A DNA stretch of 32,000 nt, taken from assembly GCA_038210445.1 (NCBI GenBank), contig JBBQWQ010000078.1, forward strand, positions 59-32,058, in the 5' to 3' direction. The notes under the pieces were generated by a model, which worked only from the letters and a program-made list of their open reading frames with translations, ran no database searches and had not been told where the DNA came from. Of the stretch, positions 3,787-25,267 are shown piece by piece; the first letter of the stretch is position 1, and every line of letters starts with the position of its first letter. A program made the translations under genes and the position numbers. Source of the stretch: Polyangiales bacterium (GTDB lineage: Bacteria; Myxococcota_A; Polyangia; Polyangiales; Polyangiaceae).

Positions 3787-4527
3787 TCAGCGCGCCGCCT
3801 GACGCAGCTCCCGGGCCGCGTCGCCGATGACCGTGCGCGCTTGCTCGCGGAGCGTGGCCACGTCGCCATCGAGCATGCCGGCGGTGGGAATCGCCGGGAG
3901 CACCCGAGCCACCGCTCGGGCCTCGCCGAACCACTTGGAGCCCTTGGGACGACATGCGCGCGTACCGTGCAGGGCGATCGGTAGCACCGGCACCTGCGCG
4001 TCGATGGCCAGCTGGAACGCGCCGTCTTTGAACGGCAAGAGCTCGCCGTCGCGGGTGCGCGTACCCTCGGGGAAGATCATCACCGAGAGGCCGTTGTCGA
4101 GGGTCTCGCGGCACACCGAGAACATTTCGCGCACGCTCTCGCCATCGCCGCGGCGCAGCGGGATGTCGCCCGAGAGCTTCATGTACCAACCGACAACCGG
4201 CGGCCGAAACAGCTCTTCCTTGGCCACCCAGCGCATGTCCCATGGCAGGTGCGAGAGCAGGAAGGGATCGGCGGTGGACTCGTGGTTCGCCACCACGACG
4301 TAGGGGCGTTCGCCGATGTCGGCCGGGGGTGAGCCCTCGACGCGAAAGTCCCAGAGCGGCGTCATGGAGCTCGACCAGCGGCCCACGCGCCGCAGCCAGC
4401 GGCCGGGCATGCGCGGCGTTGGCTCGTTGCGATGCCGAAGGCGAGAGGCGGCGATGAGGGGGAGCACGCCGAAGAGCACGGCTCCGAATTCGGCGTAGGT
4501 GTAAGCCCCGAGGATGGCGCGACGCAC
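3787..4527 (-). CDS. 1-acyl-sn-glycerol-3-phosphate acyltransferase (lysophospholipid acyltransferase family)
   Basis: Catalytic HX4D block (VANHESTADPF) and the FPEGTRTRDG block, with an N-terminal hydrophobic anchor. Confidence 0.85.
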   Translation of the reverse strand: MRRAILGAYTYAEFGAVLFGVLPLIAASRLRHRNEPTPRMPGRWLRRVGRWSSSMTPLWDFRVEGSPPADIGERPYVVVANHESTADPFLLSHLPWDMRWVAKEELFRPPVVGWYMKLSGDIPLRRGDGESVREMFSVCRETLDNGLSVMIFPEGTRTRDGELLPFKDGAFQLAIDAQVPVLPIALHGTRACRPKGSKWFGEARAVARVLPAIPTAGMLDGDVATLREQARTVIGDAARELRQAAR

Positions 4528-5102: not shown

Positions 5103-5146
5103 GATGGCGCGGCAGCCTAGCACCCCGCGCGCCGCCGTGGCGTGCT

Positions 5147-6385
5147 TCAGCCGCGGGCCAGACGCAACGCCAGCTCGAGGTGCGCCCGCGAGAGCGGCGC
5201 GTCTTCCCAGGTGAGCGACAGCGCTCCCGGACCCGCGTGGACGTCGACGTCGGTCGGCATGCCCATGAGCGCGCCGCACGCCGTTTCGTCGAAGAGCGCA
5301 GCCACCAGCCGCGGTGGCCCATGGGCCACGTAGCGTGCGTCGGCGGCAGCGGATGCGAGCGGCACTGCGCCGCGCCCGTGTACGTGCAGCCAGGCCATCA
5401 CGCGACCGAGGGCGTGCCGCGGGTGCACCCGGAGTGGGCGGAAGCCTCGCGGCGCCACCGTACCGAGCCACCTGTGCCATGAGTAGAAACCACTTCCCCG
5501 ACCCGCCGCCTGGTCGGTCATGGTGACGACAAAGGGTGCGCCGCCGAACGTGAAGCGCGCGATGTAGCTCGAGTCGCCCCGCCGGCGAAGGAACCCGCCG
5601 GCATCTACCTCGCGCACGACGTCGCGGAGCGCGTTGCGCGCGCGAAGCTGGCCGGGCTCTTCCAGGAGGAACGGCGTCGGGTCCTGGGGGCCGAGCGGGA
5701 CCTCCACCTCGGTGCCCACGGCCGCGGCGTCGGTGGCGGCGCGCAGGGCGCGCTCCAGCGCTTCTCGAAGCGCTGTGAGCGTGCCATCGAGCGACGAGAG
5801 AAGGTCGAGCGTGTCGGCCCCTTCGCGGTTATCGCGTAGTGCACGCAGGCGCTCCAGGTTCGCGTGGGCGTCGTCGGGCAACAGAGCCCGGGCACGCATC
5901 GAGAGCGCCGCCTCCAGGGGCTCGATCTCAGCCAGCTTACGGCGTACGTCTTGCCGGAGGGCAGTCCGCGGATCCCGATAGAGGCCGTCCACGGGAACGA
6001 GGGTAGCACGACGCGCGCCCCGCCCGTCGACGGCGCGCCAGTGGTCGCTCCCGCCGGGAGCTCGACAATCGGGCGTACATTTGCGGCAACTCGGAGGAGC
6101 GAGCAACGCGGGGCGTGGCCAACACCAGCGGCACTTGAGCTCAGTCAGCGGAAGGCCAGCGAGCTCTTGGGTGGGGGCCGAGAGCCTTCCAAAAATACGA
6201 ATCAGGTACGCAGGGGTTGAGCGTTGCCATGAGCCAACTGCTTCGGTCCTCGCGAAAGATCCATCACGACTTCGTGAGCTGCGTGGCCCGGAACCGGTGA
6301 AGGGGCCGGGCCGAGCGACGGTTCGGAAGATGCGGCCGGAACGACCGGCCGCATCTCGCTGAGCGAGTCGTAGGACGAATGCCAT
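5147..6385 (-). CDS. hypothetical protein with N-proximal CxxC...CxxC zinc-ribbon-like motif
   Basis: 412-aa ORF starting with ATG at 6385. Contains KCRWCW...SCRKCTPDC (4 Cys), then a helical Ala/Leu/Arg-rich segment and a C-terminal domain. The first ~75 codons lie in visibly lower-GC DNA, so the true start is uncertain. Confidence 0.5.
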
Positions 6386-20229: not shown

Positions 20230-21432
20230 GTGCTCGACCACCTTCTCTCCGCGATCACGGCTCTCAACGCCAACAAGATTCGCTCGTTTCTAACCACGCT
20301 GGGCGTGGTCATCGGCGTCCTGGCGGTGACGCTGCTGGTGAGCATCGGCGACGGCACCCGCGCGTACCTGGACGACACGCTCACGTCCATCGGCACCAAC
20401 CTGCTCACGGTACAGCCGGGTCGCCGAGAGACGCGAGGCGGATTCGGCCCGCCGGCCGGGAACGCGCAGAAGCCACTCACGCTGGACGATGTCGCGGCGC
20501 TCGAGCGCCAGGGAACGCTCCTCCGCGGCGTCACCGGCACCATCTCGGGAGCGGGCGCGGTTCGCTACGCGGGCCGCGAGCGCAACACGCTGGTCTTCGG
20601 CGTCGGACCAGCATTCCCCGATCTGCGCAACATGCACGTGGGGGTCGGCACCTTCATTCGCGAGGAGGACGTCACCTCCCGGCGCAGAGTGGTCGTGCTC
20701 GGGCGCACCGTGGTGCGTGAGCTCTTCGGCGACGAGAACCCCCTCGGCAAGCCCATCCGCGTCGCCGACGGACGCTTCCGTGTGGTGGGGGTCATGGAGG
20801 CTCATGGCTCTTCGTTCGGCTTCGATATGGACGACCTGGTCCTCATTCCGGTGAGCTCCGCAACCGACCTCTTCGGCCAGGAGCACATCGCCCAGATCAT
20901 CACCGCTGCACGCAACAAGGAGGACGTGGGCAAAGCGGCAGCGGAGATCGAGGCGATCCTGTCGCGTCGACGCCACGGCGACGTCGACTTCACGGTGCAG
21001 AGCCAGGACGATCTGATGAGCGCCTTCAGCACCCTCACATCTGCGATGACCTGGGCGCTTCTGGCCATCGCGTCCATCTCGCTGGTGGTCGGCGGCATCG
21101 GGATCATGAACATCATGCTGGTGAGCGTCCGCGAGCGAACCCGCGAGATCGGCCTGCGCCGGGCCATCGGGGCGACGCGCAGCGACATTCTCTGGCAGTT
21201 TCTCATCGAAGCGGTGGTCCTGGCGGCCATGGGCGGACTCCTGGGACTCGGCCTCGGATACTGCATCATCGAGGTCGTGCACCGGACGGCTCCGGCTGTG
21301 CCATTGCGCTTCTCCGCGTGGATCGCCATGGTGGCCTTCGGGGCTTCATTCGCCGTCGGCGTCGCTTCCGGGGTGGTACCCGCACGGCGAGCGGCGCTGC
21401 TCGACCCGGTGGATGCGCTACGCTACGAATGA
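20230..21432 (+). CDS. ABC transporter permease, MacB-like (FtsX domain)
   Basis: 400 aa. N-terminal TM (KIRSFLTTLGVVIGVLAV), a large periplasmic domain, and a C-terminal FtsX-type 3-TM bundle with VRERTREIGLRRAIGA. Confidence 0.9.
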   Translation: MLDHLLSAITALNANKIRSFLTTLGVVIGVLAVTLLVSIGDGTRAYLDDTLTSIGTNLLTVQPGRRETRGGFGPPAGNAQKPLTLDDVAALERQGTLLRGVTGTISGAGAVRYAGRERNTLVFGVGPAFPDLRNMHVGVGTFIREEDVTSRRRVVVLGRTVVRELFGDENPLGKPIRVADGRFRVVGVMEAHGSSFGFDMDDLVLIPVSSATDLFGQEHIAQIITAARNKEDVGKAAAEIEAILSRRRHGDVDFTVQSQDDLMSAFSTLTSAMTWALLAIASISLVVGGIGIMNIMLVSVRERTREIGLRRAIGATRSDILWQFLIEAVVLAAMGGLLGLGLGYCIIEVVHRTAPAVPLRFSAWIAMVAFGASFAVGVASGVVPARRAALLDPVDALRYE

Positions 21433-21463
21433 GTGAAACTCGATGCCACGCGGGGGAAAAGAC

Positions 21464-21480
21464 GCGCGCCAGCGGCGCGC
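21464..21480. terminator. GC hairpin GCGCGCC-AGC-GGCGCGC, possible bidirectional terminator
   Basis: 7-bp perfect stem located 32 nt after the permease stop. It is flanked by AAAAG on the plus strand and by a T-rich GTCTTTTCCCCC on the minus strand. Confidence 0.4.
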
Positions 21481-21663
21481 AAAAGTAGGTGGCCCTGTTT
21501 ATGCCGTCTGGGCCGAAGCGCGCACACGCGACGTGCGCCCGGCTCGGTGGTGGGAGCAGGTCCCGCACCAAAGGCGCACGCGCGCGCGAAGCGCTCAAGA
21601 CGTGCTGCCATCGCGCAACGCCGCGAGGCAGCGGTGGTATCGGAGCAAGGCGCAACTCACGCC

Positions 21664-22212
21664 TCACGCGACCTGGACCCGTTCATCGTCCGCCGCCCGC
21701 CCTTCGGTCGCGCAGTAGTCGCGCCAGACCGGCGGAATTTCCCGTACGGATTGGATGATCGGAACCAGCGGCAGGGTCTGGGGCTTGAAGGGCTTTCGAA
21801 CCAGCTTCATCCCCGCCTCCTCCGGCGTACGGCTCCCCTTTCGATCGTTGCACGGATAGCAAGAGGTCGAGATGTTCTCCCACACCGTCTTTCCGCCGCG
21901 AAGGCGGGGCACGACGTGATCGTAGTTCAGCTCGCTCATGCTCTTCCGCACGCCGCAGTACTGGCAGCGGAAGCCGTCGCGCGTGAACACATTCATGCGC
22001 GAGAAACGCACCTTGTGCTTCTTCGCCACGCCTCCTCGGGTCAGGCGCACCACGGCCGGCATCTTGATGGTGACGGACGGTGCGACAATGGCATCTTCGT
22101 ACTCCTCGAGCACTTGCACCTTGCCGAGAAAGGCCAGGGTTACGGCGCGTTGCCAGGAGATGACGCGGTGCGGAGACATCCACGGAGTAAGCAACAAGGT
22201 ACGTGTGGACAT
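21664..22212 (-). CDS. HNH endonuclease
   Basis: 182 aa from MSTRTLLLTPW. HNH core CQYCG...LNYDHVVPRLRGGKTVWENISTSCYPCNDRKG. The ATG at 22212 is preceded by AGAGAGG inside a long polypurine leader. Confidence 0.85.
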   Translation of the reverse strand: MSTRTLLLTPWMSPHRVISWQRAVTLAFLGKVQVLEEYEDAIVAPSVTIKMPAVVRLTRGGVAKKHKVRFSRMNVFTRDGFRCQYCGVRKSMSELNYDHVVPRLRGGKTVWENISTSCYPCNDRKGSRTPEEAGMKLVRKPFKPQTLPLVPIIQSVREIPPVWRDYCATEGRAADDERVQVA

Positions 22213-22325
22213 GGCTTTACCTCTTTCTCTTCTTTCTCTTTCTTTCCATGACAGTTCCTCTTCCTTTCGAACAAGATGACTCGAGCTCGCGAGTCCGAAC
22301 CGGACCACGCACGCGTATCTGCCGG

Positions 22326-22398
22326 TGGGTCATCTGCGAATCGAACGCAGTGCAGGCTCCGTATCAGAGAGCCCAGGGTAACCAACCCGTCATGACCC
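22326..22398 (-). tRNA. tRNA-Ile (anticodon GAU)
   Basis: Minus strand: GGGTCAT GA CGGG-TTGGTTAC-CCTG G GCTCT-CTGATAC-GGAGC CTGCA CTGCG-TTCGATT-CGCAG ATGACCC A. 7-bp acceptor and canonical T-loop. G8 replaces U8. No encoded CCA. Confidence 0.75.
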
Positions 22399-22544
22399 AG
22401 GCGCACATGAGCTCGCCATTCCGCAAATGAAGCGATGCCAAGGGCCGCCGAGAGAGCCTGCTCTACCGTTGAGCTACGCGCCTTCAAGCAGGCGCGACGG
22501 GACTCGAACCCGCAACAATGTACTCCCAGCTTCATGCATCGCAG
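22399..22544 (-). ncRNA. YrlA-like Y RNA candidate 1 (circularly permuted tRNA-like module)
   Basis: Minus strand: ...ATGAAGC TGGGAGTACATTGTT GCGGG-TTCGAGT-CCCGT CGCGCCT GCTTGA AGGCGCG TA GCTC-AACGGTA-GAGC A GGCTC...GCTTCAT... A canonical T arm is followed by the 3' acceptor strand, a 6-nt cap, the 5' acceptor strand (7 bp perfect), U8 A9 and a canonical D arm. The distal ATGAAGC/GCTTCAT 7-bp helix joins the 5' and 3' parts. It lies same-strand, downstream of rsr, between tRNA-Pro and tRNA-Ile. Exact ends are unknown. Confidence 0.6.
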
Positions 22545-22617
22545 TCTGAACGCCGAGATTCGAACTCGGATCGACTGGTCCCGAACCAGTCACTCTACCA
22601 GGTTGAGCTACATCCAG
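22545..22617 (-). tRNA. tRNA-Pro (anticodon CGG)
   Basis: CTGGATG TA GCTC-AACCTGGTA-GAGT G ACTGG-TTCGGGA-CCAGT CGAT CCGAG-TTCGAAT-CTCGG CGTTCAG A. C1-G72, G37 and A73 as in bacterial tRNA-Pro. Two G:U pairs in the acceptor. Confidence 0.85.
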
Positions 22618-22706
22618 AAGGAAGAGAGGCAGCAAAAGGAGCGAAGACCGTGTGCCTTGCGGCACCGAGTACGAGTCGGTGTAGTCCTCGCGAGCATCTG
22701 CCTCAG
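22618..22706 (-). ncRNA. structured 89-nt spacer, possible small RNA (not tRNA-shaped)
   Basis: Outer helix GAGGCAG (22704-22698) / CTGCCTC (22632-22626). Second helix GCGAGGAC / GTCTTCGC (8 bp, one G:U). Two inner hairpins: CCGA-CTCGTAC-TCGG and TGCC-GCAA-GGCA (GNRA loop). Confidence 0.3.
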
Positions 22707-22779
22707 AGCCGCCTGCGGGAGTTGCACCCGCGGATCCCTCGTTACGAGTGAGGGCGCTCCGCTCCAGAGCGAAGGCGGC
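22707..22779 (-). tRNA. tRNA-like, Thr (anticodon CGU), non-canonical
   Basis: GCCGCCT TC GCTC-TGGAGCG-GAGC G CCCTC A-CTCGTAA-C GAGGG ATCC GCGGG-TGCAACT-CCCGC AGGCGGC T. Perfect acceptor, but an A31:C39 mismatch (or a 9-nt loop) and a T-loop with G55. Confidence 0.55.
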
Positions 22780-22871
22780 GTAGTTGACCGTCAAGAGTCG
22801 GGGAGACACGAAACCGCCTGGCCTGCTTCGCGAGCAGGTTCGGTCGTCCGAGATTCGAGCTCGAGGGTCAG
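22780..22871 (-). ncRNA. possible third permuted tRNA-like element (weak)
   Basis: TCGAG-CTCGAAT-CTCGG (T-arm-like), ACGACCG, an inserted hairpin CCTGCT-CGCGA-AGCAGG, then CGGT(TT)CGT, which can pair back to ACGACCG. A short closing helix TGACC/GGTCA joins the ends. There is no room for a normal cloverleaf. Confidence 0.25.
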
Positions 22872-22942
22872 AGCGACAACCGGGAATCGCACCCGGATCC
22901 CGAGAGTGGCGCTCTCGAATTCTACTGTTGAACCATTGTCGC
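22872..22942 (-). tRNA. tRNA-like, Gly (anticodon GCC), non-canonical
   Basis: GCGACAA TG GTTC-AACAGTA-GAAT T CGAGA-GCGCCAC-TCTCG GGAT CCGGG-TGCGATT-CCCGG TTGTCGC T. Acceptor and anticodon stems are perfect and U73 fits Gly. C33 replaces U33, the D-loop lacks GG, and the T-loop has G55. Confidence 0.6.
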
Positions 22943-22973
22943 AATCACACAGCGCGGCGAGGGCGCCGCACAG

Positions 22974-23046
22974 AGCCACCGCCGAGACTTGCACTCGGCG
23001 TTTCCTCCGTACCGGGGAGGCGCCCCGCTCTCTGGGCTTCGGTGGC
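22974..23046 (-). tRNA. tRNA-like, Thr (anticodon GGU), non-canonical
   Basis: GCCACCG AA GCCC-AGAGAGCG-GGGC G CCTCC-CCGGTAC-GGAGG AAACG CCGAG-TGCAAGT-CTCGG CGGTGGC T. All four stems are perfect. A8, C33, a D-loop without GG, and a T-loop with G55. Confidence 0.55.
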
Positions 23047-23121
23047 AAGAACGTGCGCTCGGCAGCAAGGGGTTACGGAGACTTCGTTTTGTGAGTGTAG
23101 TCCCCGCAGCATCTGCCGCGG

Positions 23122-23202
23122 TGGGTAGCCCCGGAGTCGCACCGGGTGTGGTGAACCAAGCGTGTTACAAGCGCCCTCCGCTCTCTACGGAAATAGCTAC
23201 CC
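23122..23202 (-). tRNA. tRNA-like, Tyr (anticodon GUA), class II with long variable arm, non-canonical
   Basis: GGGTAGC TA TTTCCGTAGAGAGCGGAG GGCGC-TTGTAAC-ACGCT TGGTTCACCACA CCCGG-TGCGACT-CCGGG GCTACCC A. 7-bp acceptor, A73, and a 12-nt variable arm (TGG-TTCA-CCA) as in bacterial tRNA-Tyr. C31:A39 mismatch, D-loop without GG, G55. Confidence 0.55.
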
Positions 23203-23294
23203 GAGAAGCTCGGCGACGCGTCCGCTGGGGCGCGCCGCCGAGGAAGGAGGCGACTGCCATTGGCAGCCGGTTCGTTCGCGCGAGGGCAAACCCC

Positions 23295-24875
23295 TCACGC
23301 GAGACAGATGCTCTGGATGGTGGATACCCAGTGCGCCGCGTCGAGCTCACCCCGCACGAACTGCGCGATGAGGTCGAACACGGCGTCGGAGAAGCCACCG
23401 ACGTTGAGCACGTCGCTCCGCTCGTACATCTGCGTGCTCGCCGAAGGCTGCAAGTCGATGAGCACGAGCTTTGCGTTGGGGTTGCGCGCGCGGAAGATCT
23501 CCCACTCGTCGGCCATGGCGGTGGCGCGGCCTGCGCCCGGCCCGCGGAAGTCCACCCAGGACTGATTGTCCGAGATGTAAACCACGAGATCGCCCTGGAC
23601 CTTGCGCCGGTTCATCGCCCGAAGGGGCGCGCTGCAGGCGGTGCCTCCGCTGGGGAGGCTCGCCAGCCGCTCGGCGTTGGTCATAACCGAATCCATGGGG
23701 TTGAGCGGATGCGCCATGGTCACCACGTCGTCGCTGAAGGGGATGACCTCCGCCGACGCGTTGCGCCGGAGGCAGGTCGCCGATACGAGCGCGGCGACGT
23801 CGATGCAGCGGGCTGCGGAGGTGGCGCCCTTGCGGAAGCCGGTCACCGCGCTGTGCATCGAGCCGGAGACGTCTGGCGCGAGGTACACCTTGCCCACCAC
23901 CACGGGCACGTTCTCGATAGCGATTTCCATCGCCTCCTGGACGGCCCGGGTGATCTCCGGCGGCATCTCGGCGCTCGCCGCCCGGAAGGTGGCCATGAGC
24001 TGGTACGGGAAGACCCGTGCCCGCCGTACCGCTCCCGGATCCCGCAGCTTGCTCGCGACCAGCGCGACCAGGCTGGGGTCGGCGAAGACCCCGTGACGGA
24101 GCAGCGTGTTGAGGTTCATCCGGAGCTGGGTGAACGTCATTCGCTCGGCGAGGGTGGCCCACTGCCGGGTGTCGAGGCCGCAGGCGGTGAGCATCTCGAA
24201 GGGCACGTCGGGGAGCTCCCCCTCGCCCTTCTTGAACGCCTCGAACGCCCGCACCGTCGCCGGGAGCACTTCGGCACGGACGTCCTTCCCGATGAGGTAG
24301 CCGTAGAGGGCCTCCCGAACGACGTCGACCTCGCCGGACGCTGCCTTGGGAGAAGGACGCACCATCTTGATGACGTCCTTCATCGAGGGAGCGTTGCCCA
24401 GCGACTGCCGAAAGATGGTCTCCGGCGATCGCCCCGCGAACCAGGCCCGAAGCAAGCGCTTCGGCGCCGATCCGAAGGACTTTCGCCCCACCGCACCGGA
24501 ACGCACGATCTGAACGAAGTTCCGGAGCATCTTGCCGTTGTCTACGACCCGCGCAAACACCCGCGCGAGCATGTGGACGTCGCGCGCCGCGAGGACCGCC
24601 AGCAAGAAAGCGGGCATGTCCTTCATGAGCGCGCGCTCCCGCGCGAACACGGCAGTCTTGGCCACGAAGGCCGGGTCTGCCTGGCTCGCAAGGGTGATGA
24701 CGCGGGAGAGCTGGTCGCCCTCCGAGGCGTAGAACGTGCGGCCGAACGTGCCGGTCGCGGCGTACTGCGCCAGCGCGTGCTCCGGCGAGGACGCGTATGC
24801 GCGGCCTCCGGCCTGGTTGTTGGTATTCGCCGCCATCGCCTTGGATGCCGGCGCGAAAACAGTCTTGCTTGCCAT
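23295..24875 (-). CDS. rsr: Ro60-related protein Rsr (TROVE domain plus vWA/MIDAS)
   Basis: 526 aa from MASKTVFAPASK. The ATG at 24875 is preceded by AAGGAGGA. N-terminal TNNQAGGRAY and helical-repeat TROVE region. C-terminal vWA domain with MIDAS DVSGSM...SDN. The upstream 33 codons of ORF 23295..24974 overlap a tRNA-like gene and were not used. Confidence 0.9.
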   Translation of the reverse strand: MASKTVFAPASKAMAANTNNQAGGRAYASSPEHALAQYAATGTFGRTFYASEGDQLSRVITLASQADPAFVAKTAVFARERALMKDMPAFLLAVLAARDVHMLARVFARVVDNGKMLRNFVQIVRSGAVGRKSFGSAPKRLLRAWFAGRSPETIFRQSLGNAPSMKDVIKMVRPSPKAASGEVDVVREALYGYLIGKDVRAEVLPATVRAFEAFKKGEGELPDVPFEMLTACGLDTRQWATLAERMTFTQLRMNLNTLLRHGVFADPSLVALVASKLRDPGAVRRARVFPYQLMATFRAASAEMPPEITRAVQEAMEIAIENVPVVVGKVYLAPDVSGSMHSAVTGFRKGATSAARCIDVAALVSATCLRRNASAEVIPFSDDVVTMAHPLNPMDSVMTNAERLASLPSGGTACSAPLRAMNRRKVQGDLVVYISDNQSWVDFRGPGAGRATAMADEWEIFRARNPNAKLVLIDLQPSASTQMYERSDVLNVGGFSDAVFDLIAQFVRGELDAAHWVSTIQSICLA

Positions 24876-24915
24876 GATGCGTCCTCCTTTCCGTAGTTTC
24901 TTCATGTGAAGTGGG

Positions 24916-24986
24916 TCTTCCTGCCGCGATTCGAACGCGGACAACGAGCTTCGGAGGCTCGTGCTCGGATCCACCGAGACAAGAAG
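24916..24986 (-). tRNA. tRNA-like, Arg (anticodon CCG), irregular D/anticodon arms
   Basis: CTTCTTG T CTCGG-TGGAT-CCGAG CA CGAGC-CTCCGAA-GCTCG TTGT CCGCG-TTCGAAT-CGCGG CAGGAAG A. Canonical T arm and a 7-bp acceptor (one G:U). The D arm is a 5-bp stem with a 5-nt loop and the variable region is short. Confidence 0.55.
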
Positions 24987-24998
24987 CCGTGAACGTAG

Positions 24999-25067
24999 AG
25001 AGCCGAGAGGGAATCAAACCCTCCTGCGCAGGGTTGCAATCTGCGCGCCTCATCAGAGAATCGGCTC
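24999..25067 (-). tRNA. tRNA-like, Cys (anticodon GCA), shortened D arm
   Basis: GAGCCGA TT CTC-TGAT-GAG G CGC GCAGA-TTGCAAC-CCTGC GCAG GAGGG-TTTGATT-CCCTC TCGGCTC T. Perfect acceptor, and U73 is the Cys discriminator. 3-bp D stem with a 4-nt loop, A31:C39 mismatch, T-loop with U56. 69 nt. Confidence 0.45.
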
Positions 25068-25086
25068 GATGCGTCGAGCGACGCAG

Positions 25087-25157
25087 AGCGGGCAGCGAGA
25101 ATCGAACTCGCATCAACGGGGTGGAAGCCCGTGGCCCGACCATTGGACCATACCCGC
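25087..25157 (-). tRNA. tRNA-Gly (anticodon UCC)
   Basis: GCGGGTA TG GTCC-AATGGTC-GGGC C ACGGG-CTTCCAC-CCCGT TGAT GCGAG-TTCGATT-CTCGC TGCCCGC T. Canonical cloverleaf with U73. Confidence 0.9.
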
Positions 25158-25186
25158 GAAGAACCGCGCGCCGCGAAGCGCGCAGG

Positions 25187-25257
25187 TGGAGCCGGCGAGA
25201 CTCGAACTCGCATCGCCCGGGTGCAAGCCGGGAACTCTGCCGTTGAGATACGGCCCC
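25187..25257 (-). tRNA. tRNA-Ala (anticodon UGC)
   Basis: GGGGCCG TA TCTC-AACGGCA-GAGT T CCCGG-CTTGCAC-CCGGG CGAT GCGAG-TTCGAGT-CTCGC CGGCTCC A. The G3:U70 identity pair and A73 are present. Confidence 0.9.
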
Positions 25258-25267
25258 AGGAAATCCG

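What the first reader, a model, noticed from the sequence alone, without database searches (positions are those of the whole stretch)
22399..22544. Circularly permuted tRNA-like module downstream of rsr: YrlA-type Y RNA candidate 1
Between tRNA-Pro and tRNA-Ile the minus strand reads, in order: a canonical T arm (GCGGG-TTCGAGT-CCCGT); the 3' acceptor strand CGCGCCT; a 6-nt cap GCTTGA; the 5' acceptor strand AGGCGCG (7/7 pairs); U8 A9; and a canonical D arm (GCTC-AACGGTA-GAGC). The acceptor stem is therefore closed by a loop and the RNA ends emerge where the anticodon stem would be. The flanks pair with each other (ATGAAGC 22535-22529 with GCTTCAT 22433-22427). This is the architecture reported for bacterial YrlA RNAs, the Rsr-bound Y RNAs whose effector module mimics tRNA. 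Those are normally encoded next to rsr on the same strand, as here. It is sandwiched directly between two tRNAs, so RNase Z and RNase P processing of the neighbours could define both ends.
Basis: partly seen in the sequence, partly recalled or inferred. Interest (0 to 1): 0.9.

Follow-up and report, generated by a model that had tools for sequence, protein, structure and literature searches.

The report
Ro-linked tRNA-like Y RNA (YrlA)
This is a real small-RNA gene of an already described class, a YrlA-type Y RNA that partners the Ro60/Rsr protein and mimics a tRNA; it is ordinary as a class, but here it sits inside a cluster of tRNA genes.

Summary
The RNA is a homologue of YrlA, the Ro60/Rsr-associated tRNA-mimic Y RNA. 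Rfam RF02553 matches 22542-22429 over the whole model at 67.4 bits, E = 2e-14. That is 1.6 bits under the curated cut-off. The MFE fold gives the YrlA architecture: terminal stem, second stem, T arm, loop-capped 7-bp acceptor stem and D arm. The gene lies 753 nt downstream of an intact rsr on the same strand.

In 150 homologues from 80 rsr loci, 29 of 31 pairs show compensatory changes and 97.6% of cells are paired. The 15:48 tertiary pair covaries (window A:U).

Three corrections:
- The last ~33 nt (22431-22399) are a spacer left by a deletion.
- The usual Rsr-binding CGAA core reads UGCA here.

This is a new member of a known kind.

The context is more interesting. rsr, four Y-RNA-like genes, 12 tRNAs, four unannotated tRNA-like genes and an HNH endonuclease form one co-oriented island. 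The island recurs in Myxococcota and Acidobacteriota. Expression, Rsr binding and processing are untested.

The parts
22432..22542 (-). YrlA-type Y RNA, structured core. Terminal stem GCGAUGC (22542-22536) pairs with GCAUCGC (22438-22432). Second stem GCUGGGAG (22530-22523) pairs with CUCUCGGC (22454-22447). It also holds the T arm, the capped acceptor stem and the D arm.
   Evidence: Rfam RF02553: 67.4 bits, E = 2e-14, model 1-114. MFE fold. Own covariance model R1: 114 bits. Covariation.
22536..22542 (-). 5' strand of the terminal stem, at the position of the Rsr-binding motif. It reads GCGAUGC followed by AUG, where the family has GNCGAA(N)G. The CGAA core is UGCA here.
   Evidence: Column counts in A3: C139/U10 at column 5 and A142/G5/C2 at column 7. 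Only the window and L001 read GCGAUGCAUG. Both changes are compensated on the 3' strand.
22497..22513 (-). T arm: GCGGG-UUCGAGU-CCCGU.
   Evidence: Sequence. Helix 3 has 5 of 5 pairs with compensatory changes. UUCGAGU is the commonest T loop among homologues.
22477..22496 (-). Acceptor-like stem closed by a loop: CGCGCCU, cap GCUUGA, AGGCGCG (7 bp). Stacked on the 5-bp T stem it gives the 12-bp stack that RNase P recognises.
   Evidence: Sequence. Helix 4 has 7 of 7 pairs with compensatory changes. The stem is 7/7 paired in 92 of 124 homologues. The single difference from L001 is C to U, which keeps a G-U pair.
22460..22476 (-). U8 A9 followed by the D arm GCUC-AACGGUA-GAGC. A15 is the partner of U48 at 22514.
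   Evidence: Sequence. The Levitt pair is G:C or A:U in 85 of 96 homologues, and A:U in the window.
22399..22431 (-). 3' spacer between the Y RNA and tRNA-Ile. It is not part of the conserved RNA. It is what remains after loss of about 170 nt that are present in the close relative L001.
   Evidence: Pairwise alignment of window and L001. L001 has tRNA-Gln at 4083-4155.
22544..22617 (-). tRNA-Pro(CGG) with no encoded CCA. Its discriminator A22545 lies 2 nt upstream of the first paired base of the Y RNA.
   Evidence: ARAGORN. Rfam tRNA 59.2 bits. Sequence.
22324..22398 (-). tRNA-Ile(GAU), the downstream neighbour.
   Evidence: ARAGORN.
23295..24875 (-). rsr, the Ro60 orthologue (526 aa). ATG at 24875 behind GGAGG. 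The MIDAS motif DVSGS is intact.
   Evidence: Pfam PF05731 TROVE and PF25045 vWA_Ro60. Full-length homologues at 64-72% identity in Polyangiaceae, Pendulispora and Labilithrix.
25445..25576 (-). Second, divergent YrlA-like RNA between tRNA-Asp and tRNA-Trp. It has a UGAA motif variant, a weak T arm, a long capped acceptor-like stem and a GCCC/GGGC D-like arm.
   Evidence: R1 hit, 48.6 bits. Fold z = -2.46.
23056..23119 (-). Short stem-loop Y-RNA-like gene: terminal stem plus second stem, with no tRNA module.
   Evidence: R1 hit, 34.8 bits. Fold z = -2.41.
22623..22704 (-). Short Y-RNA-like gene between tRNA-Thr and tRNA-Pro. It has the same two stems and two small hairpins in place of the tRNA module.
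   Evidence: R1 hit, 34.1 bits. Fold z = -3.01.
21664..22308 (-). HNH endonuclease ORF that closes the island. The probable real start is the ATG at about 22211.
   Evidence: Pfam HNH_5 and HNH. Same-strand homologues in 37 of 80 rsr loci.

Best explanation
The segment encodes a YrlA-family Y RNA of about 111 nt, the noncoding partner of the Ro60 orthologue Rsr encoded 753 nt upstream on the same strand. In what follows, 'shown' means demonstrated here and 'inferred' means taken from the family or from context.

Shown:
- Its two ends pair into a terminal stem, which in this family carries the Rsr-binding site. A second stem stands where a tRNA anticodon stem would be.
- On top sits a tRNA core in permuted order: T arm, 7-bp acceptor stem closed by a 6-nt loop, U8 A9 and D arm. 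All the nucleotides needed for the tRNA L-shape are present.
- The architecture, the homology and the evolutionary constraint on every helix are demonstrated.

Inferred:
- The RNA is transcribed as part of one minus-strand precursor. That precursor runs from upstream of tRNA-Lys (about 26.2 kb) through eight tRNAs, rsr and four more tRNAs to the HNH gene.
- The RNA is released by the enzymes that mature its neighbours. The tRNAs lack encoded CCA, so RNase Z or exonucleases would cut after the tRNA-Pro discriminator, 2 nt before the stem. RNase P would cut at the 5' end of tRNA-Ile, and the 33-nt tail would then be trimmed.
- Rsr binds the terminal stem and stabilises the RNA.
- The tRNA-like module recruits a tRNA-recognising effector. 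By analogy with D. radiodurans and Salmonella, it tethers Rsr to an exoribonuclease such as PNPase for decay of structured or misfolded RNA.
- The acceptor stem is 7 bp and stacks on a 5-bp T stem. The cap is therefore probably nicked by RNase P and the new 3' end CCA-tailed, as shown for M. smegmatis YrlA.
For: - Rfam YrlA model: 67.4 bits, E = 2e-14, full length.
- The same family is found next to rsr in 7 of 7 related loci, and two of those hits exceed the gathering score.
- The MFE structure equals the YrlA architecture.
- MAFFT/RNAalifold: 18 of 31 pairs compensatory in 10 sequences.
- 150 sequences: 97.6% of cells paired against 38-53% in the slid controls, 29 of 31 pairs compensatory, 0 of 500 shuffles as high.
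- All 284 model hits in the 80 loci and the window lie on the rsr strand.
- Levitt pair: 85 of 96 are G:C or A:U.
- rsr is intact.
- The only substitution relative to the 97%-identical relative preserves pairing.
- Direct abutment of YrlA on tRNA genes (10 nt or less) recurs in 10 of 46 cases in loci that have tRNAs.
- The tRNAs lack encoded CCA.
Against: - The score is 1.6 bits below Rfam's curated gathering cut-off.
- The conserved Rsr-binding core CGAA reads UGCA here, a variant seen in only 2 of 150 homologues. PMC12135203 treats CGAA as the conserved Ro60-contact motif. Rsr binding therefore cannot be taken for granted.
- The fold is not unusually stable for its composition: z = -1.64, or -0.36 with the spacer included.
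- No sigma-70-like promoter was found.
- No expression, binding or processing data exist.
Confidence: 0.87

Rival explanations
1. It is an artefact of the tRNA array. The 3' part of one tRNA (T arm plus 3' acceptor strand) is followed by the 5' part of the next (5' acceptor strand plus D arm), or it is a recombination or deletion remnant of two tRNA genes, with no function of its own.
For: The element lies in a tRNA array that visibly gains and loses units: about 170 nt differ from L001 right next to it. PMC4201824 warns that dimeric tRNAs can score as YrlA. True tRNA junctions do hit my model, for example L082:1601-1664 between two tRNA-Arg genes.
Against: Junction hits cover only the model core (positions 33-98), whereas this hit covers 1-124, or 1-114 in Rfam. 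The two acceptor strands are complementary to each other 7/7. There is no room for an anticodon arm: only 31 nt separate the end of tRNA-Pro from the T arm. No tRNA is called there. The flanks form the two conserved Y-RNA stems, and every helix covaries across 150 homologues.
Confidence: 0.03
2. It is a YrlA descendant that no longer works through Rsr. The CGAA contact motif is lost, so the RNA might act on its own. It could be a tRNA-shaped decoy or sponge for tRNA-binding enzymes or toxins, or a processing or spacing element of the tRNA operon.
For: CGAA is replaced by UGCA in this RNA only (window and L001, 2 of 150). None of the four Y-like RNAs of this organism has the canonical CGAA. A decoy role for array tRNAs has been proposed in PMC8421152.
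Against: The changes are compensated so that the helix is kept, and the invariant A8 U9 G10 are retained. rsr is intact and adjacent. Rsr shows no striking lineage-specific changes at otherwise invariant positions. All four RNAs keep the two-stem scaffold typical of Ro ligands.
Confidence: 0.08
3. It is a genuinely permuted tRNA gene whose transcript is circularised and re-cut to give a functional tRNA, as happens for the permuted tRNA genes of the red alga Cyanidioschyzon merolae (recalled from my own knowledge).
For: The order T arm, 3' acceptor strand, linker, 5' acceptor strand, D arm is the order of such genes.
Against: No anticodon stem-loop exists. Where it would be there is a 15-bp two-part stem that ends in the RNA termini. 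The homologues are all rsr-linked Y RNAs.
Confidence: 0.01

Closest known systems
YrlA of Salmonella Typhimurium and the Rfam family RF02553 (Chen et al. 2014, PMC4201824; structure PDB 6CU1, bioRxiv 10.1101/312249)
   Same: It is encoded next to rsr on the same strand. It has a terminal stem formed by the 5' and 3' ends. It has the T arm, loop-closed acceptor stem and D arm in the same order. U8, A14, G18 G19, the U54 U55 C56 T loop and the 15:48 pair are conserved.
   Different: There is no variable (V) stem: 9 nt, against a median of 22 in the homologues. The acceptor stem is 7 bp rather than shorter. The CGAA core of the Rsr motif reads UGCA. The gene is not in an rtcR-controlled rsr-yrlBA-rtcBA operon but in a tRNA array. 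The score is 1.6 bits under the Rfam cut-off.
YrlA of Mycobacterium smegmatis (PMC4201824)
   Same: It has a 7-bp acceptor stem, the feature the authors link to RNase P cleavage in the cap and CCA addition in vivo. Several Y RNAs are made from one precursor near rsr.
   Different: It is encoded upstream of rsr. Cleavage and CCA addition were shown experimentally there and are only predicted here.
Yrn1 and Yrn2 of Deinococcus radiodurans (PMC4201824)
   Same: The Y RNAs are co-transcribed with a tRNA (Yrn2, tRNA-Asp, Yrn1) and are stabilised by Rsr. They tether Rsr to PNPase.
   Different: The permutation of the tRNA-like part differs, the evolutionary lineage is separate, and only one tRNA is involved rather than an array.
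Long horizontally transferred tRNA arrays ('L-arrays', PMC8421152) and archaeal tRNA gene clusters carrying a TROVE gene (PMC6333295)
   Same: Co-oriented, densely packed tRNA genes are linked with an HNH endonuclease. A TROVE-domain gene was reported inside 20 of 29 archaeal clusters. The neighbourhoods are enriched in RNA-repair and RNA-processing genes.
   Different: In the papers I could search, no Y RNA genes were described among the tRNAs. The bacterial rsr-in-array arrangement seen here in Myxococcota and Acidobacteriota was not described either.
tmRNA
   Same: It is a tRNA mimic with a T arm and an acceptor stem, and two-piece (permuted) forms exist.
   Different: tmRNA has a free CCA end, is charged with alanine and carries an mRNA module. 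This RNA has a closed acceptor stem, no G3-U70 pair and no coding part.

Membership tests
YrlA (Y RNA-like A; Chen et al. 2014; Rfam RF02553) | Encoded within 4 kb of a Ro60/TROVE orthologue, on the same strand. | tested here: met
   The rsr stop codon starts at 23295 and the RNA starts at 22542, 753 nt downstream on the same (minus) strand.
YrlA (Y RNA-like A; Chen et al. 2014; Rfam RF02553) | Significant Infernal match to the YrlA covariance model. The authors' criterion was E < 5e-5. | tested here: met
   E = 2.1e-14, 67.4 bits, model positions 1-114 of 114.
YrlA (Y RNA-like A; Chen et al. 2014; Rfam RF02553) | Rfam curated gathering score of 69 bits. This is an operational cut-off, not a biological feature. 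| tested here: not met
   67.4 bits, so the hit is absent from the gathering-threshold scan. Homologues at the same position relative to rsr in L005 (74.2) and L008 (73.6) pass. The loss comes from the innermost 4-bp helix of the Rfam model, which this RNA does not form: three pairs are flagged non-canonical, with gaps on both strands.
YrlA (Y RNA-like A; Chen et al. 2014; Rfam RF02553) | Near-invariant T and D stem-loops separated by an acceptor-like (AS) stem-loop. | tested here: met
   Sequence and MFE fold. Helices 3, 4 and 5 are 94.9-99.1% paired, with 5 of 5, 7 of 7 and 3 of 4 pairs compensatory.
YrlA (Y RNA-like A; Chen et al. 2014; Rfam RF02553) | Nucleotides for tRNA tertiary contacts, including a covarying Levitt 15:48 pair. 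| tested here: met
   UA linker, A14, GG in the D loop, UUCGA in the T loop, and A15:U48 in the window. Among homologues there are 49 G:C and 36 A:U out of 96.
YrlA (Y RNA-like A; Chen et al. 2014; Rfam RF02553) | [quoted passage not shown] | tested here: met
   7-bp plus 8-bp stems in the MFE fold. Helices 1 and 2 have 7 of 7 and 7 of 8 pairs compensatory.
YrlA (Y RNA-like A; Chen et al. 2014; Rfam RF02553) | GNCGAAN0-1G motif on the 5' strand, the presumed Rsr contact. This is a typical, conserved feature. | tested here: not met
   The window reads GCGAUGCAUG. The strict motif is in 113 of 150 homologues and NCGAAN0-1G in 134 of 150. UGCA occurs only in the window and L001. The partner bases changed too, so the helix is kept. 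I treat this as a divergent motif in a clear homologue. It lowers confidence in Rsr binding, not in homology.
YrlA (Y RNA-like A; Chen et al. 2014; Rfam RF02553) | V stem-loop upstream of the T arm. The authors describe it as present in 'many', so it is not defining. | tested here: not met
   Only 9 nt lie between the second stem and the T stem, against a homologue median of 22.
YrlA (Y RNA-like A; Chen et al. 2014; Rfam RF02553) | Stable transcript bound by Rsr, with pseudouridine 55 and dihydrouridine modification. | not testable with these tools
Canonical or permuted tRNA gene | Anticodon stem-loop with a 7-nt loop. | tested here: not met
   No tRNA is called by ARAGORN or by the Rfam tRNA model at E <= 10. 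The position is occupied by the terminal stems.
Tandem-tRNA junction (the known false positive for YrlA searches) | The match is confined to the span from T arm to D arm, flanked by the rest of two tRNAs. | tested here: not met
   The match here is full-length. Compare the true junction L082:1601-1664, which matches model positions 33-98 only.
tRNA array unit (Tran et al. 2016 definition quoted in PMC4758250: at least 20 tRNA genes at 2 or more per kb) | At least 20 tRNA genes at a density of 2 or more per kb. | tested here: not met
   The window has 12 called tRNAs plus 4 tRNA-like genes over 3.8 kb (26133-22324), which meets the density but not the count. Related rsr loci do meet the definition, for example L019 with 31, L021 with 29 and L022 with 28 tRNAs in 11.6 kb.

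The most novel reading that the evidence does not exclude
The YrlA gene is one part of a horizontally mobile cassette shared by Myxococcota and Acidobacteriota. The cassette holds supernumerary, partly non-canonical tRNAs, rsr, several Y RNAs and an HNH endonuclease. In this reading the Y RNAs are cut out of the tRNA precursor by RNase P and RNase Z, and the Ro-Y RNP polices or buffers the cassette's own tRNA pool. Some YrlA paralogues in related cassettes would be nicked by RNase P, end in CCA and be charged with alanine, as tmRNA is. The cassette itself is shown here. The functional coupling and the charging are conjecture.
Probability: 0.25. Interest if true: 0.65.

Novelty: new member of a known kind. 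Interest (0 to 1): 0.35.

Why it matters
For annotation, this is a Y RNA that the standard Rfam threshold misses by 1.6 bits. It gives the rsr gene of this myxobacterium its expected RNA partner.

For biology, the value lies in the setting:
- Four Y-RNA-like genes are interleaved with tRNA genes around rsr, with ends that coincide with tRNA ends.
- The arrangement offers a natural system for asking how Y RNAs are matured.
- It can also address whether Ro-Y RNPs act on tRNAs, and whether YrlA arose from tandem tRNA genes.
- The lineage-specific replacement of the CGAA Ro-contact core, with compensating changes, is a ready-made test of what Rsr actually reads.

Tried and rejected
- A megablast of 21000-26500 against the phage collection found nothing. 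The flanks are ordinary chromosomal genes: a MacB/HlyD transporter, methyltransferases and an M90 peptidase. I therefore dropped the idea that the window is a phage or prophage.
It is not conserved, so I rejected it as the family's closing helix. It may be a lineage-specific alternative fold of the precursor.
- I tested the tRNA-dimer false-positive explanation and rejected it.
- I looked for lineage-specific Rsr substitutions that might accompany the CGAA to UGCA change. There are 14 sites, mostly conservative, and nothing interpretable.
- The sigma-70 promoter scan found none in 21400-26700. Only a terminator-like hairpin after the HNH gene (21481-21463) supports the operon boundary.
- Fold z-scores are weak. 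For a GC-rich sequence they do not discriminate, so I relied on covariation instead.
- The supplementary tables of PMC4201824 are not held. I could not check whether any myxobacterial YrlA was already listed there.
- Literature searches combining tRNA arrays with Ro60, TROVE, Rsr and Y RNA returned only the archaeal TROVE-in-cluster remark.

Full report
**What is in the sequence.**
- T arm GCGGG-UUCGAGU-CCCGU, 22513-22497.
- CGCGCCU, 22496-22490.
- Cap GCUUGA, 22489-22484.
- AGGCGCG, 22483-22477, complementary 7/7 to the earlier strand.
- U8 A9, 22476-22475.
- D arm GCUC-AACGGUA-GAGC, 22474-22460.

ARAGORN finds 12 tRNA genes in the window, all on the minus strand. They include tRNA-Pro(CGG) at 22617-22544 and tRNA-Ile(GAU) at 22398-22324, on either side of the finding. 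The ORF at 24875-23295 on the minus strand is a full-length Ro60 orthologue with TROVE and Ro60-vWA domains. Its homologues are 64-72% identical in Polyangiaceae, Pendulispora and Labilithrix, and one metagenomic protein is 97% identical. The organism is therefore a myxobacterium of the Polyangiaceae group with 68% GC.

**Is it more than chance, and what is it?**
At Rfam's curated thresholds only tRNAs are reported. With E-value reporting, the YrlA family RF02553 matches 22542-22429 on the minus strand at 67.4 bits. The cut-off is 69. The E-value is 2e-14 and the match covers the whole model, positions 1-114.

The MFE fold of that stretch is the YrlA architecture:
- Terminal stem GCGAUGC/GCAUCGC.
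- An internal loop.
- Second stem GCUGGGAG/CUCUCGGC.
- A three-way junction carrying the T arm, the capped acceptor stem and the D arm.

The fold is not unusually stable for so GC-rich a sequence (z = -1.64). Thermodynamics alone therefore says little, and the weight rests on comparison.

**Comparative evidence.**
I fetched 80 rsr loci from genomes using an Rsr alignment, so the RNA did not influence the selection. Rfam's YrlA model hits downstream of rsr on the rsr strand in 7 of 7 loci tested, twice above the cut-off.

A MAFFT alignment of ten such RNAs folded by RNAalifold gives the same five helices, and 18 of 31 pairs show compensatory changes.

A covariance model built from that alignment found 284 matches in the 80 loci and the window. 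Every one is on the rsr strand. On the best 150:
- 97.6% of cells form standard pairs, against 38-53% when partners are slid by 1-3 columns.
- 29 of 31 pairs have changes on both sides.
- No shuffle out of 500 reaches the observed values.

That alignment is fitted to the model, which favours the structure. The independent MAFFT result points the same way.

The tertiary Levitt pair, which Chen et al. single out as covarying in YrlA (PMC4201824), is G15:C48 in 49 and A15:U48 in 36 of 96 homologues. The window has A:U.

The closest relative, L001 (Rsr 97% identical), differs in the RNA by one base. That change is C to U in the acceptor stem and converts a G-C pair to G-U.

- *Terminal helix.* ATGAAGC/GCTTCAT exists, and when forced it costs only 1.2 kcal/mol more than the MFE. 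It is 7/7 only in the window and L001. In the other 147 homologues it is mostly 2-3 of 7 and never more than 5. It is topologically exclusive with the conserved helix GCGAUGC (22542-22536) / GCAUCGC (22438-22432).
- *Extent.* The RNA core is 22542-22432. The stretch 22431-22399 is a spacer. In L001 about 170 more nucleotides, including a tRNA-Gln, sit at that point, so the window carries a deletion scar.
- *Rsr motif.* The family's 5' motif GNCGAAN0-1G is the presumed Rsr contact. It is present strictly in 113 of 150 homologues and as NCGAAN0-1G in 134 of 150. Here it reads GCGAUGCAUG. The CGAA core is UGCA, a variant found only in the window and L001, with both changes compensated on the other strand. 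None of the four Y-like RNAs of this organism has a canonical CGAA.
- *V stem.* The RNA also lacks the optional V stem. It has 9 nt there, against a median of 22.

**The false-positive issue.**
Chen et al. discarded hits overlapping tandem tRNAs, because a T arm followed by the next tRNA's D arm can imitate YrlA. That does not apply here, for four reasons:
- The match is full length, whereas real junctions match only the core. For example, L082:1601-1664 between two tRNA-Arg genes matches model positions 33-98.
- The two acceptor strands pair with each other.
- Only 31 nt separate the end of tRNA-Pro from the T arm.
- No tRNA is called in the interval.

**How it most likely works.**
Shown here are the architecture, the homology, selection on all helices, the linkage to an intact rsr, and the co-orientation of everything from tRNA-Lys (26133) to the HNH ORF (21664). 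A terminator-like hairpin lies just beyond, at 21481-21463.

The rest is inferred:
- One precursor is transcribed across the island.
- The tRNAs lack encoded CCA. Their 3' ends therefore need an endonucleolytic or exonucleolytic step after the discriminator. For tRNA-Pro that point lies 2 nt before the Y RNA's first paired base.
- RNase P at tRNA-Ile frees the 3' side, and the tail is then trimmed.

Tight abutment recurs in the relatives. There are 0-2 nt to a downstream tRNA-Gly in L005, L006 and L011. There are 0 and 2 nt on the two sides in L009. Overall 10 of 46 cases are within 10 nt. D. radiodurans Yrn2, tRNA-Asp and Yrn1 are known to share a precursor.

By family analogy, Rsr binds the terminal stem, and the tRNA-like module engages a tRNA-recognising partner and tethers Rsr to an exoribonuclease. 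The acceptor stem is 7 bp on a 5-bp T stem. [quoted passage not shown] I therefore predict nicking between A22484 and A22483.

**Comparison with the known, and novelty.**
The class was described in 2014 (more than 250 species) and has a crystal structure. [quoted passage not shown] The finding is therefore a new member of a known kind. It has a divergent Rsr motif, no V arm and a 7-bp acceptor stem.

**Context.**
The window holds three more matches to the Y RNA model:
- 25576-25445, a divergent YrlA-like RNA.
- 23119-23056 and 22704-22623, short forms that keep the two stems without the tRNA module.

It also holds four cloverleaves that ARAGORN does not call.

Among the 80 rsr loci, 49 contain tRNAs, always on the rsr strand, and 25 have ten or more, up to 31 in 11.6 kb. 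These are in Myxococcota and Acidobacteriota. The HNH ORF at the end of the island has same-strand homologues in 37 of the 80 loci, all but one of which (L052, a partial match at a contig end) also have tRNAs.

HNH-linked, horizontally spread long tRNA arrays are known (PMC8421152). A TROVE gene was noted in 20 of 29 archaeal tRNA clusters (PMC6333295). In the searchable literature I found no description of Y RNA genes interleaved in bacterial tRNA arrays. This raises the interest of the locus somewhat, but not of the finding as stated.

**Verdict.**
- Observation: confirmed.
- Interpretation: supported, with three corrections of detail.
- Class: already known.
- Interest: 0.35.

Noticed in passing
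window 25445-25576 (-): A second, divergent YrlA-like RNA lies between tRNA-Asp and tRNA-Trp, upstream of rsr. It has the terminal stem GAAGUGA/UCACUUC, a UGAA motif variant, a weak T arm (GGGUUCGAUUCC), a long acceptor-like stem with a hairpin in its cap, and a GCCC/GGGC D-like arm. The R1 score is 48.6 bits, and it is also present in L001:663-807. Rfam does not report it at E <= 10.
   Followed up: partly
window 23056-23119 (-) and 22623-22704 (-): Two short Y-RNA-like genes share GGCAGAUGCU...GGACUACAC. They keep the terminal and second stems but have no tRNA module. The R1 scores are 34.8 and 34.1 bits, and the fold z-scores are -2.4 and -3.0. They resemble the 'long hairpin' second Y RNAs (YrlB, Yrn2) described by Chen et al.
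   Followed up: partly
window 23202-23122, 23046-22975, 25067-25000, 25763-25692 (all -): Four cloverleaf-shaped tRNA-like genes are missed by ARAGORN. By eye their anticodons are ?, GGU (Thr), GCA (Cys) with an over-long anticodon stem, and GAA (Phe). Three of them, and the called tRNA-Gly(GCC) and tRNA-Thr(CGU), have T loops with G at position 55 (UGCGA or UGCAA) instead of UUCGA. The called tRNA-Asp has U at position 37. Many array tRNAs therefore look non-canonical.
   Followed up: partly
L001-L080 (rsr loci); window 21664-26133: rsr sits inside co-oriented tRNA arrays in many Myxococcota and Acidobacteriota (Pyrinomonadaceae) genomes. Of the 80 loci, 49 have tRNAs, all on the rsr strand, and 25 have ten or more (31 in L019 and L048). 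Y-RNA model hits are interleaved with the tRNAs on both sides of rsr, for example five in L012. I did not find this described for bacteria in the searchable literature. The loci with 21-31 tRNAs among L018-L023 have no full-length YrlA hit.
   Followed up: partly
window 21664-22308 (-); 37 of the 80 loci: The HNH_5 endonuclease ORF is a conserved, same-strand component of these islands. Identity is 59-84% in Myxococcota and 35-43% in Acidobacteriota. It matches the HNH 'homing endonuclease' reported next to long tRNA arrays in cyanobacteria. A purine-rich tract, GAAAGAAAGAGAAAGAAGAGAAAGAGG (about 22247-22221), precedes its probable start.
   Followed up: partly
A3 alignment; e.g. L059:6890-7022, L027:7146-7274, L069:7100-7239, L006:6649-6776, L055:7245-7358: In 17 of 124 related YrlA RNAs the capped acceptor stem carries the alanine identity set: G1-C72, G2-C71, G3-U70 and discriminator A73. 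G-U is much commoner at 3:70 (27 of 124) than at any other acceptor pair. The discriminator is A in 18 of 27 with G3-U70, against 25 of 97 otherwise. In 14 of 124 the cap begins N-CCA, and three of those have the full alanine set. After RNase P nicking these could be alanine acceptors, like tmRNA. The two YrlA papers I read do not mention this. The window's own YrlA lacks it (A1-U72, G3-C70, G73).
   Followed up: partly
window 22399-22431 vs L001:3970-4170: The array is in flux. Relative to the 97%-identical relative, the window lacks about 170 nt (a tRNA-Met-like fragment and tRNA-Gln) after YrlA. It also lacks a tRNA-Pro(UGG) unit upstream. The window has tRNA-His where L001 does not.
   Followed up: partly
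window about 26160-26225 (-): An AT-rich stretch upstream of the first tRNA (tRNA-Lys) holds three CAAAC repeats and an inverted repeat, CAAACgtacaaGTTTG. It is a candidate promoter or operator of the island. The sigma-70 consensus scan found nothing there.
   Followed up: no
L082 (IMG/VR UViG_3300029893_000001, a 392-kb viral contig) 5138-5933: A giant-virus-sized phage contig encodes an Rsr relative (47% identity) with three YrlA-like hits just upstream and six tRNAs nearby. One hit (5434-5576) overlaps a called tRNA-Ile and needs checking.
   Followed up: no
window 25935-25975 (-) and 22780-22870 (-): Two inter-tRNA spacers have unknown content. One is a perfect 12-bp hairpin, GACGAGCGCAUC-CAGCA-GAUGCGCUCGUC, between tRNA-Lys and tRNA-Asn. 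The other is a 91-nt spacer between tRNA-Gly and tRNA-Thr that folds weakly (z = -1.4) and matches no model.
   Followed up: no
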